From NCBI RefSeq assembly GCF_017348835.2, contig NZ_CP071375.1: a DNA stretch of 64,000 bases. The stretch is one strand, 5' to 3'. A program made the position numbers. This stretch comes from Escherichia coli (GTDB taxonomy: Bacteria > Pseudomonadota > Gammaproteobacteria > Enterobacterales > Enterobacteriaceae). Shown here piece after piece: positions 51,201 to 57,200 of this stretch (positions within the stretch are counted from its first letter, which is position 1; every line of letters begins with the position of its first letter).

Positions 51201-54200
51201 CCATAAAGAAGCCTAAAAAGACAGAACGTATTGTAACAATAGTGCTCCCCATCTGAACCTGAGCTCCTCCGTTAAAAGCCAGTGTTCGTATGCCAGAAAG
51301 AGTATCCTGCGGTATTTCCCCCAGTCCCCCACTCGCTGTTAGATATGGTGTTAAATTTATTGGCATAATAAAACCCCCATTAACTTCATTAACATTTTAC
51401 TTGATTTCCTGTTGAAGCATCTTACTTATCACAATGCTTTCACACACCATTATCAGTCTTGCAAAAGATAAGACTCCATTATCAAGCCAAAATAAATTTA
51501 ACTTCATTAACAAACATCACCATGGCATGCCAACAAAAACCGGAGCCGGACTCCGGTTTTGTGAAGCTGTCGGGTTACTTCATCCCGCCAATATTTTCCC
51601 ACGTCCCGTCAGCACGCAGAATTTGCAGCGGTCTTACCACGCACTGTATCTGCTTTTTATCTGCATCCAGTATCACCACCTGCGTGATTACCCTGTCCTG
51701 CTCCGGAATAATGCCATTCTCATCTGACTCCAGAATGTCTGCCGGTCCCAGACGCAGTTGTGCTGTAAGTAACTCCCCGTGTTCACGGTCATCATGCTTT
51801 CCGTACCCGCACAGACGCTGCATAAGTTTTTTTAGTACGTTCATGTCATTCTCCTGTTCTGCCTGTATCACTGCCCACTTCATCCAGCCCCTTAACATCC
51901 TGCCACGGCCCGTCACCAAACCTGACCTGCAAATGCTGAAACAGCCCCTGAACCTGTGTGGCATCTTTGGGGTCAAGAAAGGTCAGTCCAGTGATGAGCG
52001 CACCATCTGTACCCGGGAACCAGCCATTGCTGTTTGTCTCAATAATGCTCGCCGGCCCCAGACGAAAACGGATTTGTGTCTCCCCCGGGTCGCCCTTCGG
52101 TCCCTGAGGTCCGGTTGATGGTCCCGGCATGTGACGGCGGGAAGCCCTCCACCAACAGAATGACGCTGTACTGACCGTACTCAACGTCCATGCTGTAACG
52201 ACCGGCTTCATCCGGATTTTCAGAGGCCACCGTGTTCACCACCACCGTGCTGCTGGTCCGTCTGGCTTTCAGTTGAATGGTGCAGTTCTCTACCGGTTTT
52301 CCTGTGCCGTCTTTCAGTACACCTGAAATCTTTACTGCCATATTCACCCCACAAAAAAGCCCGCCTGAACCGGCGGGCTGTCATAACACTGTGTTACCTG
52401 GCTAATCAGAACTTATAACCGACACCCACGATGAAACCGTCAGTGCGCCAGTCGCCACTGCCGGAGCCTTCATAAGCAATATCAATGGCCACGGATTCGG
52501 TCGGGTTAAACTGCACGCCAGCTCCCCACGCCAGAGAGGTGTCGCTGTGGCGACCGTCATCACTTCCGGTCAGCACATAGTGCGTTTTCCCCTTGTTGTC
52601 AGTTACGCGAAGATAATCCCCGGAGAAAGTCGACACACGGCTGTAAGCCACACCCGCCATCGCATACGCGCTGAACCATTCATTCACGCGCACAGACGGC
52701 CCCGCCATTACGCTGAACCAGCGGTTACGCACGGAATCTTCATGCCAGCGGGTATCGCTGTAACGGGTAAGCTGGCGATTCTTGTCTCCTGCATGGCGGT
52801 ATTTTTTGTTGATCGCCGCATCCACACGTAACAGCGTCTCTTCCTCATCAGGACGCCCCATAGCTGACACCTTCCAGACCATCGTTACCACCTGGACCAG
52901 TGATGAGCACAGACGCTATGGCAACAGCCCCACCACCAATAGCAGCTGCAACAGCCTTGCGTAATGACGGCGACATTATTCACCTCTCGCAGCCTTACGC
53001 TTATCTTCTTTAATCTTGAAATAAAGATTTGTCAGATACGTCAGCAAGCCAAACACCAGGCTACCCAATACGCCTATTGCCACCCACTGGGATGGGGAGA
53101 CTTTGTCCAGCAACTGCAGTAGCCAGTATCCCGTCCCCACCGCTGACGTGGTGTATGACACACCTGTTGTTATTTTTTCCATCTGGTACATACCCCGTCT
53201 CCCGTTATCCGGAAGCTGACAACAATAAAAAGCCACCAGTTAATTCCTGATGGCCCTGATGCATAAACGTCATAATACCTGACTGTTATGATTGACAATA
53301 ATGATAATGTTTATATAGAAAGGTTCCCGATGTGTGTTACATATCATTTCTCCACGGGGAATATCCCCACGCCAGCGCAGACTCTTTTACCCGTTCTCTT
53401 CTGCGCTGGCTCTTTTTTATTATGCTGCTGCATTTACCTCTGGCACCATGCTTTCTATCTCAACACAATACGTGCTACTTCTTGTAACCAATATCATAAC
53501 GATTAATCGACATAGAATTTCTCCCGTGTACAGGAACAGAGTTAAAAAGCCGGAACCGGAATCAAATCACAGGATGACCATCTGCCAGTGGCAGGTCATA
53601 AAAAAAAGGCCGCGCCATGCGCAGCCAGAACTCACAAGGAAAATGATAGAAGGAAATAACATTAGTGATGTACGCATGGCGCCTCCCGCTAAGTTCTGCA
53701 ATGATCAAACAGAACTCGCTACGTGCCCTTAAAACTCGATCATTTAGCCCCTCCAAGGAGGATTCACCATGCGGTTGATTTTTTAATAAACAGTAAACAA
53801 AAAAGTCAAGAATTATTCATTCTGTTCTTTCATCATCGGCCACAGCAATACCACAATGCCGCAGACCAGAGCGCCATCAGTCAGTACCAACATTATCCTG
53901 CTGGTGAAATCCATCATCACCATCACTAAAAGCAGGATCACAACAGCAAGCAGACACAGTTTATAAAACAATGTTCAGAAAACGCATTCAGCATGCCTAA
54001 GGTTCTATTCCTACGAATAGCCAACTTGCAACTTAAAATATTATTTATGCAGCCAATTAAATTCTGGTCCTTACAATATCAACCTGAAGATTCTTATCTT
54101 GTGCTGATTGATAAATGACAAACCTTTTACTACCTGCATTGAAAGAAGTAGACAAAACCAGACAATTATCATAACGAGCAAGAACATAATACCAACCATC

Positions 54201-57200
54201 ATTATAATTAATCATTTCATATTCTTTCTTAAACTGTGGTTTGTAATATCCTGTCAGAAATGAAAAAAGCCAGAAATATGCCACAAAAGCAATCATCACA
54301 ATCTCAAAAAAATGTTTTTTATAAATGGCTTATCATAGAAGCATGATACCGATAAAAATCGCCCATAAGATCTTATCGAAATTGTAACCGCCAGCGCAAT
54401 CGCTGCTGACAGTAGCAAAAGAGGTACCTGAATCTTCTGTCTCAATATAGAAAACTCAATAATTGCCGGCACAAACAATAATTCCACAGCAAAATAAAGG
54501 CGAAATACATTTAGCTCTTGCATAGAATGTTTTCTTTTCACTGCGAAAAAGAATACAACACCAATACCCCAACCGATAAGAAATATAGCAATGACGATAA
54601 CTGCAAAAAATAAACTTCTGGCAACATCATCAACACCTGCACCTACAATCCACCATGGGAAGCCGTAGTAAAAAGAAGTACCCCATCCATAGAAATAAGC
54701 ACTCCCCCATCCAAGGCATCCCATGTAGGCAATAAAAAGTGAAGAACTCCTGAGCAGCGCACCATCCTGCATAACCACCCCAATACAAGATGATAACATT
54801 GGCTTACAACTCATAACAAAAGCAATTCAATGCCGTCAAGAGGTTACAGGCTAAAAAAACTCTATTACATTGCAGTCAGCATGTTTACTACACAAATACA
54901 ATTCAGAGCATAAAAACTACTCGGCGGCAGGTTATTGAGACTCATCAATGACATGTAAAAAACGCCCATTATTGGTGTCAAGTTTCCCCAAAGTTATTCA
55001 AAAAGTCAATATTATGCCGTTAATATGTTGCCATCCGTGGCAATCATGGCGCTAACGTGTGATCGCATTCAAAATGTTGTCTGCGATTGACTCTTCCTTG
55101 TGGCATTGCACAACCAGAGCGTCATACAGCGGCTTAACAGTGCGTGACCAGGTGGGTTGGGTAAGGTTTGGGATTAGCATCGTCACAGCGCGATATGCGG
55201 CGCTTGCTGGCATTCTTGAATAACCGACGCCTTTACATCTTCCGCACTCTTTCTCAGCAACTATCCCCCACTGCTCTGTTTTGGCTATATCAACCGCACG
55301 GCCTGTACCGTGGCAATCTCTGCATCTTGCGCCCGGCGTAGCGGCACTACGGCAATAATCCGCATAAGCGAATGTTGCGAGCACTTGCAGTACCTTTGCC
55401 TTAGTATTTCCTTCGAGCTTTGCCACACCACGGTATTTCCCCGATACCTTGTGTGCAAATTGCATCAGATAGTTGATAGCCTTTTGTTTGTCGTTCTGGC
55501 TGAGTTCATGCTTACCGCAGAATGCAGCCATTCCGAATCCGGCTTGTGATTGCGCCATCCCCATAGCAGCCATCACATCAGTACCAGAAAGAGAGTCAGA
55601 AGCCGTAGCCCGTGGTGAGTCGCTCATCATCGGGCTTTTTGGCGAATGAAATTTAGCTACGCTTTCGAGTCTCATGCGCCTTCTCCCTGTACCTGAATCA
55701 ATGTGAGGTTTCCGCAGAACACTGCGCCAGTATCGATATACATCTGGTTGGCAAATTTGAGTGGTTTCACTGCTGGCGTATGACCAAAGATGAACGTGTC
55801 CGCGCCTTTGATTTCTTTCACGATCCCGTCTTGTGAGTTGCTGATTCGTTCGCGGTTCCAGATTACCTGCTGATGATCAACTGGCTTTCCAAACTCGTAT
55901 TTATCACAAGGATAATCGGCGTGGCAGATGACATATTTTTTTCCTTTACTCACCAGTTCGATGATTAACGGAAGTTCATCTGCTTTATGGGCAAGAGCTT
56001 TAGCCAGAATTTCTTTGTCGTAATCGAGATTAAAGAACCAGCCACCGCCATTAAGCAGCCAGTGATTGACGTTTCCACGCTCTGATAAGCCATCAATCAT
56101 CATTTGCTCATGGTTTCCACGTACAGCTCTGAACCAGGGGAATGTGATTAATTCCAGGCATTCTACGTTCTCTGTACCGCGATCAACCAAATCGCCCACC
56201 GAGATAAGCAGGTCTTTTTTGGTGTCGAATCCTATCGTCTCCAGTTTTTTCATCAGGTTCGTGTAGCATCCGTGCAGATCGCCAACTACCCAAATATTTC
56301 GGTATTTGCTGCCATCAATTCTTTCGTAGATATTCATGCAACCTCACTTCTGCTGTTTCGCAGTTTTTTAAGTTTCTGTTGATACTCCGCCTTGATGGCC
56401 CTGCACTCTTCGACAGTCCAGCGATAGCGGTTATGGTTTGATTCGATTTCCTCTACTGCTTCCTGCCCGATGCGGCTAATCAGTTCGACGCGATACGGAA
56501 CGAGATTTCCGCTTTTGTGCTGGTTGCACACCACGCATTGCTTGTGAATATTGCGTTCATCAAATCGGAGTTGAGGTGCCGCAGCAGTTGTCCGGTAATG
56601 TCCGGCATCCCACTGAGCAGACGTGAGCGTTCCGCACGAGATACATGGTAAGTCGCGGTCTCTTTCTCTGATGAAGGCGTTTACGGCTTGTTGGGCTTGT
56701 TTAATCCAGTAACTGCGGGGCTTTAAGGCGAGTTTTTGAATCTTAAGTTTATCTTTCTGTTTCTGCTCCTCTCGTCGTCGTTTCTTCTCTGCTGCTTTTT
56801 CCGCTTTTTCGCGTTCTTTACTTCGTCGTTCGAGTGCTATCTTGGTTCCACAAATCTCATTACACAAATATTGATTTTGATATTTTGGTATAAACCATTC
56901 ATTGCAACATTTACATTTCCTTCGATAGATTCGCATAAGTGCTCCTTTCGTTGCCGGAAAAATCACCGTAATACTTATCTCGGGCTTCTTCAGCAACTAG
57001 TACCGCTAACTCCAGATCATCAAAGCATCCGAAGTGTTTACTCTTTCCATGGAATCCTAGCCTAACATTCCATTTTTTCTGTCGTTTGTGCCAAGTAACC
57101 CCTCTGCAACCTGATTTGCTATTCTTTCGGATCCTTATATTTCTTGAATTTTCTATTGGCAGGCATTCTCTTAAATTTTCTGGCCTATTGTCGGTCCTAA

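What the first reader, a model, noticed from the sequence alone, without database searches (positions are those of the whole stretch)
54057..55010. Two-gene membrane-protein module directly downstream of Q and pR', in the stx-equivalent position
Immediately after a lambda-like pR' promoter, the first late genes are not lysis genes but a polytopic membrane protein (up to 172 aa) translationally coupled to an 80-aa single-TM protein, both AT-rich. This Q-controlled slot is the classic moron position (Shiga toxin in Stx phages). A coupled membrane pair here could be a superinfection-exclusion or abortive-infection module, or an induction-linked factor. I recognise neither protein.
Basis: partly seen in the sequence, partly recalled or inferred. 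Interest (0 to 1): 0.7.

Follow-up and report, generated by a model that had tools for sequence, protein, structure and literature searches.

The report
Frameshifted single membrane-protein moron after Q
The supposed pair of coupled membrane-protein genes downstream of the phage Q antiterminator is one common prophage gene of unknown function, a 238-aa inner-membrane protein also present intact in classical phage 434, that a one-base deletion has split in two in this decayed prophage.

Summary
The two ORFs exist on the minus strand at 54296-54814 and 54057-54299. They are not a gene pair. They are the two halves of one 238/247-aa gene, split by a 1-bp deletion in an A7 run (A6 at 54315-54320). 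The intact gene is 99.9% identical in phage 434. It keeps A7 in 79 of 80 related viral loci, and the A6 61-mer is found in only 15 of 679 complete E. coli genomes. RefSeq already marks it "frameshifted" in a strain identical to the window.

A lambda-type Q and a lambda pR' lie upstream, the insert is AT-rich, and it sits in the Q-to-holin slot that stx fills in Stx phages.

The protein belongs to a small uncharacterised family (Pfam PF27470 "TfpB", PHROG 1521; Salmonella STM1630). It has 4-5 TM helices plus a small C-terminal beta domain, with no match to any solved structure or defence-system model. The partner that is actually conserved is the next gene, a 52-aa DUF3927/TciB protein.

Relatives sit beside LT/STb toxin genes, on Shigella pINV, next to sseJ, and alone in Pasteurellaceae and Neisseria. 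That points to an envelope or lysogenic-conversion role rather than phage defence, but this is unproven. The finding is ordinary and of low-to-moderate interest.

The parts
55052..55675 (-). Lambda-type Q antiterminator gene (207 aa), intact
   Evidence: ORF. PHROG 127 'anti-termination protein Q-like', E 3.9e-82. RefSeq 'antitermination protein' WP_001235460.1 in identical DNA.
54968..55009 (-). pR'-type late promoter: -35 TTGACT 55009-55004, 17-nt spacer holding the Q-binding element, -10 GAAACT 54986-54981, -10-like pause hexamer AATAAT 54973-54968
   Evidence: Column-by-column alignment with lambda 44500-44600. Similarity to lambda ends a few bases after the pause hexamer. The roles of the elements are assigned from established knowledge of lambda pR'.
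54912..54933 (-). Degraded remnant of the tR'-type terminator found at this place in phage 434
   Evidence: Alignment with 434. The 434 hairpin folds at -13.3 kcal/mol (z -3.2) and is followed by T8. The window's stretch folds at -5.1 kcal/mol (z -0.4). The terminator scan finds nothing here.
54057..54799 (-). Single TfpB/STM1630-family membrane-protein gene, frameshifted (pseudogene). The likely true start is the ATG at 54772, giving 238 aa when intact
   Evidence: All homologues start at the Met that corresponds to 54772.
54296..54814 (-). N-terminal fragment ORF (172 aa as listed): the aromatic/Gly-rich helix plus TM2-TM4, then 7 out-of-frame residues (NIFLRL) and a stop
   Evidence: phrog_14371 and phrog_1521, positions 1-140.
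54315..54320 (-). Frameshift site: A6 run on the gene strand where intact alleles have A7, followed by C-A and a T7 run at 54306-54312
   Evidence: alignment. (A7/T7 in 79 of 80 loci, window A6/T7). (exact A6 61-mer in 15 of 679 genomes).
54057..54299 (-). C-terminal fragment ORF (80 aa): TM5 plus the five-stranded beta domain
   Evidence: phrog_1521 positions 143-222; phrog_3985. Model.
53813..53971 (-). DUF3927 / 'TciB-like' 52-aa small membrane protein, the conserved downstream partner of the gene
   Evidence: PHROG 1470, E 2.5e-17. RefSeq 'DUF3927 family protein'. Present after the gene in 79 of 80 viral loci.
53600..53626 (-). First strong intrinsic terminator on the late strand after pR' (8-bp stem with 7 G-C pairs, then T8). 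It closes the two-gene insert
   Evidence: scan. (-16 kcal/mol, z -3.1). A terminator is annotated after TciB in 434 (43343-43371), and I take it to be the counterpart of this one.
52976..53191 (-). S21-type class II holin (pinholin), the first lysis gene
   Evidence: PHROG 9876/20 holin. RefSeq 'class II holin family protein'.
52860..52976 (-). Truncated lysozyme gene, showing that the prophage is decayed
   Evidence: RefSeq annotation of identical DNA: 'lysozyme, incomplete'. It is followed by a Lom fragment, tail-fibre fragments, an IS3 element and NleG. Matching ORFs.

Best explanation
Identity (shown). The finding is one gene, not two. It is an AT-rich insert ('moron') placed right after Q and pR' in a lambdoid prophage. 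It encodes a roughly 238-aa inner-membrane protein of the uncharacterised TfpB/STM1630 family (Pfam PF27470, PHROG 1521). In this window, loss of one A from an A7 run has broken the reading frame. The result is a 5' ORF (the aromatic helix plus TM2-TM4) and a 3' ORF (TM5 plus the beta domain), whose GTGA overlap only looks like translational coupling. The prophage around it is a decayed remnant, so this is most simply one more decay lesion. The unit that is really conserved is this gene, then the 52-aa DUF3927/TciB gene, then a strong terminator.

How the intact protein works (inferred, about 0.3 likely). The protein sits in the inner membrane with a small beta domain facing the periplasm. It acts on the cell envelope of the lysogen as a conversion or fitness factor, in the manner of the other envelope morons of the lambdoid late region (Bor/Iss, Lom, LpxR). 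It is probably not a phage-defence module.

Expression (inferred). In lambda-Q-type prophages such as this one, no terminator lies between pR' and the gene. Transcripts from pR', a promoter the prophage repressor does not shut off, could therefore reach the gene in the lysogen and stop at 53608. Q would boost expression and allow read-through on induction.
For: Single gene. There is a 1-bp gap in the A7 run against the intact E2865 allele. The intact allele translates to 247 aa. One PHROG profile spans both ORFs. RefSeq flags 'frameshifted' in 100%-identical PE164 and annotates an intact CDS, WP_001302581.1, in E2865. Phage 434 and phage 2B8 carry it intact. 24 close and 16 distant homologues are all single proteins of about 240 aa with the same architecture. 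A7/T7 is present in 79 of 80 IMG/VR loci. The exact A6 61-mer is the best match in 15 of 679 complete genomes. The intact 247-aa and 238-aa sequences are seen on at least 1000 and on 918 contigs.

Decay context. The neighbourhood holds a truncated lysozyme, Lom and tail-fibre fragments and an IS3 element, with no head or tail genes.

Family and fold. Pfam PF27470 'TfpB' is recorded on all homologues. The AlphaFold model has pLDDT 85.4 and pTM 0.78, with five long helices plus a five-stranded beta domain at 196-241. Hydropathy and charge put the positive loops 87-99 and 147-166 on one side and the C-terminal domain on the other.

Module. The order Q, gene, TciB holds in 79 of 80 loci, behind either of two unrelated Q types.

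Terminators. The 434-type hairpin is present in 26 of 32 Q82-type loci and 0 of 46 lambda-Q loci (folds). The first terminator in the window is at 53626-53608.

Leaning towards an envelope or host-interaction role. Homologues lie beside eltAB/estB, on 106 Shigella plasmids, and next to sseJ as STM1630. STM1630 is induced under SPI-2-inducing conditions and inside macrophages, and its mutants have infection-model and motility phenotypes (PMC6785131 Text S1; PMC4219756). Distant homologues stand alone among housekeeping genes in Pasteurella and Neisseria.
Against: The frameshift could be a homopolymer sequencing error rather than a real mutation. One of the 15 assemblies carrying it (AUSMDU00014361) shows several other frameshifted genes nearby. 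The A6 allele also turns up in three different prophage backgrounds.

The periplasmic placement of the beta domain rests on a simple charge count. Three lysines right after TM5 argue the other way.

Expression in the lysogen is inferred from the absence of a recognisable hairpin only. Rho-dependent termination or a weak pR' (-10 GAAACT against lambda's TAAATT) could prevent it. The STM1630 phenotypes come from screens, and the motility result was re-examined with cleaner deletions in PMC4534456.
Confidence: 0.85

Rival explanations
1. The gene is actually intact in the organism, and the missing A is a homopolymer error of the assembly.
For: The lesion is a single base in an A7 run next to a T7 run. 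The same A6 state appears sporadically in unrelated prophage backgrounds. One of those assemblies has several neighbouring 'frameshifted' genes.
Against: Two independent assemblies (PE164, F2_81) are 100% identical to the window over 1201 bp, including the A6 run. The surrounding prophage is visibly decayed. The 79-aa C-terminal fragment was called on 411 contigs from many projects.
Confidence: 0.15
2. The split form is a working two-polypeptide version. The 80-aa piece would be made by termination-reinitiation at the GTGA/ATG overlap and would reassemble with the 4-TM piece. Alternatively, the A-run acts as a slippage or phase-variation switch.
For: Stop and start overlap (GTGA, with an ATG one codon later). 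The A6 allele recurs. Split halves are common enough to have their own PHROGs, 14371 and 3985. In the intact gene, A-AAA-AAA is in the phase of a -1 slippery heptamer (read directly).
Against: Only 15 of 679 complete genomes and 0 of 80 viral loci carry A6. All distant homologues are single chains, and the Lys-Lys codons of the run are not conserved among them. I see no good Shine-Dalgarno sequence before the restart codon. A 6-7-base run is short for efficient slippage (general knowledge).
Confidence: 0.05
3. The intact protein, with TciB, is a superinfection-exclusion or abortive-infection device in the inner membrane.
For: It is an inner-membrane protein with a small extra-membrane domain, carried as a prophage moron, possibly expressed in the lysogen. 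It is paired with a second small membrane protein in 79 of 80 loci. Known exclusion proteins such as HK97 gp15, P22 SieA and T4 Imm are also small membrane proteins (from memory, not tested).
Against: No PADLOC model matches any of the three proteins at E up to 1. Homologues without TciB and outside any prophage sit among housekeeping genes or next to toxin and effector genes. The only phenotypes on record for a relative concern infection and motility, not phages.
Confidence: 0.15
4. It is an accessory of the lysis cassette, for example a regulator of pinholin timing.
For: It lies just upstream of an S21-type pinholin in nearly all viral loci and is co-transcribed from pR' after Q action.
Against: No match to lysis PHROGs. 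A strong terminator separates it from the holin. Other cargo (the SASA esterase or an opposite-strand ORF) is often inserted between them. Homologues exist with no lysis genes nearby.
Confidence: 0.07

Closest known systems
Phage 434 gene CPT_434_68, 'putative membrane protein' (OL657226.1, 42170-42913), and its copy in phage 2B8
   Same: 99.9% and 98.4% nucleotide identity over 744 nt. Same position after Q and same downstream TciB gene. Phage 2B8 also shares the lambda-type Q and the identical leader.
   Different: Intact (A7) in both phages. In 434 it follows a Q82-type antiterminator and an intact terminator hairpin, and a SASA esterase follows before the holin. The window has a lambda-type Q, no terminator before the gene, no esterase, and the frameshift.
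Salmonella Typhimurium STM1630 (putative inner membrane protein between steB and sseJ)
   Same: Same family and same length (238 aa), 46% identity, same predicted architecture. Identified as STM1630 by its 717-bp size, its sseJ neighbour and the translated knockout primer. AT-rich, horizontally acquired DNA bound by H-NS.
   Different: Chromosomal, with its own promoter and no Q, TciB or lysis genes nearby. Expression and infection-model data exist for it but not for the phage copy. Its function is still stated as unknown (PMC6785131 Text S1).
Toxin morons of the Q-to-S slot (stx in Stx phages; LT-II in lambdoid prophages)
   Same: Same slot immediately downstream of Q/pR' and upstream of the holin. 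In 434 the same SASA esterase follows; from my recollection, that esterase follows stx2 in 933W. A 59% homologue lies next to eltAB and estB on ETEC contigs.
   Different: It is a polytopic membrane protein, not a secreted AB5 toxin. By tblastn, only phages 434 and 2B8 among 50,697 phage records carry a family member. The layout of Stx and LT-II phages is from my knowledge and was not re-examined here.
Envelope morons of the lambdoid late region (Bor/Iss, Lom, LpxR) and membrane exclusion proteins (HK97 gp15, P22 SieA)
   Same: Small envelope proteins carried as AT-rich inserts in or near the late operon, thought to act in the lysogen. Iss, Lom and LpxR genes are annotated in the related prophages seen here.
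   Different: No sequence or fold similarity was found to any of them. The resemblance is one of genomic logic only.
Moraxella tfpB, the ORF in the pilin-gene inversion region that I believe gave Pfam PF27470 its name
   Same: Pfam labels the family 'TfpB'. A Moraxella caprae protein is a structural and sequence relative (22% identity, TM 0.73).
   Different: The link to the M. bovis pilin inversion region is from memory. No paper in the library connects tfpB with Moraxella, and I did not see a pilin or piv context in any locus. The TfpB of Acinetobacter (a PilB-like ATPase, PMC8213720) is an unrelated protein with the same name.

Membership tests
TfpB / STM1630 family (Pfam PF27470; PHROG 1521) | Significant match to the family profile over its whole length | tested here: met
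   The two window ORFs match PHROG 1521 positions 1-140 (E 2.6e-91) and 143-222 (E 1.7e-52).
TfpB / STM1630 family (Pfam PF27470; PHROG 1521) | One polypeptide of about 238 aa: aromatic/Gly-rich N-terminal helix, four hydrophobic TM helices, C-terminal five-stranded beta domain | tested here: not met
   This copy is interrupted between TM4 and TM5 by a -1 frameshift (A6 for A7). It is therefore a pseudogene copy of a family member. All 40 aligned homologues are single chains. Model.
TfpB / STM1630 family (Pfam PF27470; PHROG 1521) | Conserved motif AY-G-LGWGSAYFYGWG-S-YYGFPWW ... ARSL, and YKPQ-KKEY ... WYYVLARY | tested here: met
   Both motifs are present in the window's fragments.
   79 of 80 viral loci carry A7, which gives one ORF. 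Phages 434 and 2B8 also carry one ORF. The A6 61-mer is in 15 of 679 complete genomes.
Moron (AT-rich insert with its own terminator, and often its own promoter, between conserved phage genes) | Composition unlike the flanks; sits between conserved neighbours that are adjacent in other phages | tested here: met
   GC is 0.32-0.42 against about 0.5 in the flanks. The gene lies between Q and the holin behind two unrelated Q types. Lambda itself lacks it; similarity to lambda ends after the pause site.
Moron (AT-rich insert with its own terminator, and often its own promoter, between conserved phage genes) | Factor-independent terminator at the 3' end | tested here: met
   Hairpin at 53626-53608 plus T8, -16 kcal/mol, z -3.1.
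Moron (AT-rich insert with its own terminator, and often its own promoter, between conserved phage genes) | Own sigma-70 promoter | tested here: inconclusive
   One 9-of-12 consensus match at 54819-54790 (TTGTTA-18-TATCAT, with TG). The number of promoter-like sites in the region (5) is no more than in shuffles (mean 6.0).
Lambda-type Q/pR' late-transcription unit | Lambda Q protein, with pR' carrying the -35, the Q-binding element, the -10 and a promoter-proximal -10-like pause element | tested here: met
   The 207-aa Q matches PHROG 127. The DNA is near-identical to lambda from the end of Q to the pause element. Function was not tested.
Lambda-type Q/pR' late-transcription unit | Terminator (tR') between pR' and the first downstream gene, so that the gene depends on Q | tested here: not met
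   No terminator-like site between 54968 and 54815. The remnant of the 434 hairpin folds no better than shuffles. 0 of 46 lambda-Q loci keep the hairpin, against 26 of 32 Q82 loci. Rho-dependent termination is not testable here.
Known anti-phage defence / superinfection-exclusion systems | Match to a model of a known or candidate defence protein | tested here: not met
   PADLOC: 0 families at E up to 1 for the intact protein, for TciB and for the opposite-strand ORF.
Known anti-phage defence / superinfection-exclusion systems | Reduces plating of superinfecting phage | not testable with these tools
   Needs cloning and plaque assays.
Phage lysis proteins (holin, antiholin, endolysin, spanin) | Match to a lysis family | tested here: not met
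   Only unknown-function PHROGs match. The holin is a separate gene at 52976-53191.

The most novel reading that the evidence does not exclude
The TfpB/STM1630 family may be an unrecognised lysogenic-conversion or virulence-associated envelope factor. It travels with toxin and effector loci: the stx-equivalent slot of lambdoid prophages, next to LT/STb, on Shigella pINV, and next to sseJ. In lambda-Q-type prophages it would be built into the constitutive pR' transcript by loss of tR', so it would be made in every lysogen and amplified on induction.
Probability: 0.2. Interest if true: 0.5.

Novelty: already known. Interest (0 to 1): 0.25.

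Why it matters
For this window it matters little. The 'module' is a broken copy of a gene that databases already list, and RefSeq already flags it as frameshifted.

The family behind it is a fair target for experiment. DNA closely similar to the gene region is found in about a quarter of complete E. coli genomes (1340 of 5426). The gene sits in the best-expressed accessory slot of lambdoid phages, including the classical phage 434. Relatives lie beside LT/STb, on Shigella pINV and next to the Salmonella effector gene sseJ. Yet it has no known function and no solved structural relative.

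The contrast between Q82-type prophages (terminator before the gene) and lambda-Q-type prophages (no terminator) is a small, testable point about how cargo genes in this slot are expressed in lysogens.

Tried and rejected
- The local Pfam-A scan of the intact protein and of 40 family members gave nothing significant. The local library predates PF27470, whose name I saw only through the look-up of encoding contigs.
- NCBIfam gave no family for either fragment. PADLOC gave none.
The second, from 40 sequences, was good (85.4).
- Literature: no paper holds WP_001302581, PF27470, or tfpB together with Moraxella. 'TciB' and 'DUF3927' return only P1-type annotation labels. No paper holds OL657226.
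- The 62-mer carrying A7 returned 'No match' in E. coli genomes, probably because of the low-complexity filter. The A7 count therefore rests on the 95-99% band, on the 80 viral loci and on the exact-protein look-up.
- I checked whether the distant homologue P0110 lies in a pilin or piv context. Its neighbour looks by eye like an oligoribonuclease, not a pilin or piv gene.
- I considered that the pair might be a conserved split or a programmed frameshift, and rejected it on allele frequencies and on the lack of conservation of the A-run in homologues.
- The contexts already seen showed no conserved neighbour outside phages.

Full report
**1. What is at the coordinates.**
The phage late region runs on the minus strand. 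ORF listing shows a 207-aa ORF at 55052-55675, a 172-aa ORF at 54296-54814 and an 80-aa GTG-start ORF at 54057-54299. These are followed by a 52-aa ORF at 53813-53971 and a holin-like ORF ending at 52976. The first ORF is a lambda-type Q: PHROG 127, E 3.9e-82, annotated 'antitermination protein' in identical RefSeq DNA.

**2. The promoter claim.**
I aligned the Q-to-gene spacer with lambda 44500-44900. It is near-identical from the Q stop through the -35 (TTGACT, 55009-55004), the spacer that holds the Q-binding element in lambda, the -10 (GAAACT against lambda's TAAATT, 54986-54981) and a -10-like hexamer just downstream (AATAAT, 54973-54968, against lambda's AACGAT). Similarity stops after that point. 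The roles of these elements come from established knowledge of lambda pR'. Their activity here was not tested.

**3. The 'pair' is one gene.**
- PHROG 1521, a 222-position profile, matches the 172-aa ORF over positions 1-140 and the 80-aa ORF over positions 143-222.
- The same 1201 bp is 100% identical in E. coli PE164, where RefSeq annotates a single 'frameshifted' pseudogene. In strain E2865 (99.8% identical) there is an intact 744-nt CDS, WP_001302581.1.
- The pairwise alignment shows exactly one gap, an A missing from an A7 run (A6 at window 54315-54320), plus one substitution. The intact allele translates to 247 aa.
- In the shifted frame the ORF runs ...I-K-N-I-F-L-R-L-stop. Its TGA overlaps the in-frame GTG-ATG (Val-Met) codons of the original gene. 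That overlap produces the apparent GTGA 'coupling'.

**4. How common is each state.**
- All 80 best viral-contig relatives match residues 1-247 in one piece.
- 79 of those 80 carry A7/T7 at the site, against A6/T7 in the window.
- In complete E. coli genomes, the window's 61-mer around the run is an exact match in 15 of 679 genomes that carry this allele group. The other 664 fall in the 95-99% band expected for a one-base difference.
- The exact intact 247-aa and 238-aa proteins are on record from at least 1000 and from 918 contigs. The 79-aa C-terminal fragment is on record from 411 contigs.
- The A6 state also occurs behind a Q82-type Q in an O145 strain, and in lambda-Q-type prophages whose lysis cassette is intact or nearly so. 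It therefore recurs, through slippage or through homopolymer sequencing error, and is not inherited as a conserved arrangement.
- The prophage in the window is a remnant. It has an integrase, a few nin-region genes, Q, this gene, TciB and the holin, then a truncated lysozyme, Lom and tail-fibre fragments, an IS3 element, NleG and NleA. A frameshift here fits general decay.

**5. The protein.**
- All close homologues start at the Met that corresponds to 54772, so the mature length is about 238 aa.
- The family is small. A profile search of 1.84 billion representatives found 76 proteins at E up to 0.001. The full-length ones are all about 230-260 aa, from Enterobacteriaceae, Pasteurellaceae and Neisseria. 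AFDB50 adds Moraxella and more distant candidates in Bacillus, Paenibacillus and Pseudomonas.
- Pfam PF27470 'TfpB' is recorded for all of them. The local Pfam-A library does not yet hold that family.
- With 40 sequences, AlphaFold gives a confident model (pLDDT 85.4, pTM 0.78). It has a long aromatic/Gly-rich N-terminal helix carrying the most conserved motif, four clearly hydrophobic helices, and a five-stranded beta domain at 196-241.
- Charge distribution puts loops 87-99 and 147-166 on the cytoplasmic side and the beta domain in the periplasm. This is an inference from a simple count.
- No defence-system model matches. No lysis family matches.

**6. Context in relatives.**
- Classical phage 434 carries the gene intact, at 99.9% nucleotide identity. 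The order there is a Q82-type Q, an annotated terminator, the gene, TciB (DUF3927), a small membrane ORF overlapped by an annotated terminator, a SASA-family esterase, and a pinholin.
- Phage 2B8 has the lambda-Q version with a leader identical to the window's.
- Across the 80 viral loci the order is always Q (lambda type in 46, Q82 type in 32, cut off in 2), then the gene, then TciB (79 of 80). Next comes either the opposite-strand 132-aa ORF or the SASA esterase, then the S21 holin and RrrD.
- So the conserved two-gene unit is the gene plus TciB, not the two fragments.
- From my recollection of phage 933W, stx2AB lies in this same slot, between Q and the same esterase. That layout was not re-examined here.

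**7. Terminators and expression (inference).**
- In 434 a good hairpin (-13.3 kcal/mol, z -3.2) followed by T8 lies between Q and the gene.
- The homologous stretch in the window has substitutions and a 4-nt deletion, and folds no better than shuffled sequence.
- Across loci, the intact hairpin is present in 26 of 32 Q82-type loci and in 0 of 46 lambda-Q-type loci.
- The first terminator-like site on the late strand after pR' in the window is at 53626-53608 (-16 kcal/mol, T8), just after TciB.
- Lambda's pR' is not under repressor control (established knowledge). The gene and tciB could therefore be transcribed in lysogens of the lambda-Q type and end at that terminator, with Q adding read-through on induction.
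- This was not tested. Rho-dependent termination, or a weak -10, could undo it.

**8. Relatives outside phages, and what is known.**
- A 59% homologue lies divergently upstream of eltAB, with estB nearby, on IS-rich ETEC contigs. It is listed in 1285 blocks of the contig collection.
- 57% homologues are on Shigella virulence plasmids: 106 of the 156 plasmid hits.
- The 46% Salmonella homologue lies next to sseJ and is STM1630. The gene is 717 bp, it neighbours sseJ, and the published knockout primer translates to NSSMLLAYLGGLGWG, which matches P0075.
- For STM1630, PMC6785131 (Text S1) says the function is unknown. It reports that the gene is expressed in SPI-2-inducing medium and inside macrophages in strain 4/74, is bound by H-NS, and is silenced by promoter SNPs in ST313. 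It cites earlier work in which mutants were attenuated in calves and chicks. A clean deletion in 4/74 raised intramacrophage replication.
- A deletion library screen scored the STM1630 mutant as hypermotile (PMC4219756). A follow-up study rebuilt the deletion without a resistance cassette, because it suspected polar effects in that screen (PMC4534456).
- In Pasteurella and Neisseria, distant homologues stand alone among housekeeping genes.
- None of these copies has Q, TciB or a holin nearby.

**9. Interpretation.**
*Shown:* this is one gene, frameshifted, belonging to a catalogued but uncharacterised membrane-protein family. It sits in the Q-to-S slot behind a lambda-type pR' and is AT-rich (GC 0.32-0.42).

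*Inferred, with low confidence:* the intact protein is an envelope-acting conversion or fitness factor rather than a defence device. The reasons are that the family occurs without phages, often beside toxin or effector genes, in animal-associated bacteria, and that the only phenotypes on record concern infection and motility. Exclusion and lysis-timing roles remain possible, and I list them as rivals.

**10. Novelty and score.**
The sequence is present, and already annotated, in hundreds of genomes and in phage 434. The pseudogene state is flagged by RefSeq. The finding as written, a coupled two-gene module, does not hold. The residual interest lies in the unknown function of a very common gene in a prime accessory slot, and in the terminator difference between Q types. 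Interest is 0.25.

Noticed in passing
L011-L014 (ETEC contigs), gene at 6001-6714 of each locus: A 59%-identical homologue (P0044, 237 aa, intact) lies divergently about 870 bp upstream of the heat-labile enterotoxin genes eltA/eltB. The STb gene is about 3 kb away on the other side, and both are set among IS elements. The protein is listed in 1285 blocks of the contig collection.
   Followed up: partly
L015 (Shigella flexneri pWR501, 135269-135985) and 105 other Shigella plasmids: A 57% homologue is conserved on Shigella virulence plasmids. The plasmid gene table was too sparse to see which virulence genes flank it.
   Followed up: no
window 54912-54933 compared with L004 2865-2890; 80 viral loci: The terminator hairpin between Q and the membrane-protein gene is intact in 26 of 32 Q82-type prophages. 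It is absent or degraded in all 46 lambda-Q-type prophages. This suggests the cargo genes are regulated differently depending on the Q type.
   Followed up: yes
window 53334-53732 (+): A 132-aa ORF on the strand opposite to the late operon is annotated 'hypothetical protein' in RefSeq and is conserved in many related loci. It overlaps the late-strand terminator at 53608-53626. In phage 434 the corresponding DNA is instead annotated with a 63-aa late-strand membrane ORF. Which reading is real is unclear.
   Followed up: no
window 53813-53971 (-): The 52-aa DUF3927 protein labelled 'TciB-like' follows the membrane-protein gene in 79 of 80 viral loci. It is absent next to the plasmid and chromosomal homologues. 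Its function is unknown, and the label appears to come from phage P1 annotation.
   Followed up: partly
window about 50700-53000 and beyond (minus strand downstream of the holin): The prophage is a roughly 15-kb remnant inserted in the DUF1175 gene next to yfaA (by comparison with PE164). After the holin come a truncated lysozyme, a Lom fragment, tail-fibre fragments, an IS3 element, and then the T3SS effector genes nleG (50719-51366) and nleA. The effector cargo has been kept while the phage functions are lost.
   Followed up: partly
window 57537-57810 (-): ORFs here contain long runs of repeated dipeptide-like units (LFLFLF..., ISISIS...). This points to a short tandem DNA repeat upstream of the nin region.
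   Followed up: no
L004 693-1652 (phage 434) and L017 742-1701 (O145 RM8995-C1): In Q82-type relatives, a lipid A deacylase (LpxR) gene is inserted on the opposite strand just upstream of Q, next to a leftover N-terminal fragment of a lambda-type Q. This is another envelope-modifying cargo gene at a mosaic junction.
   Followed up: no
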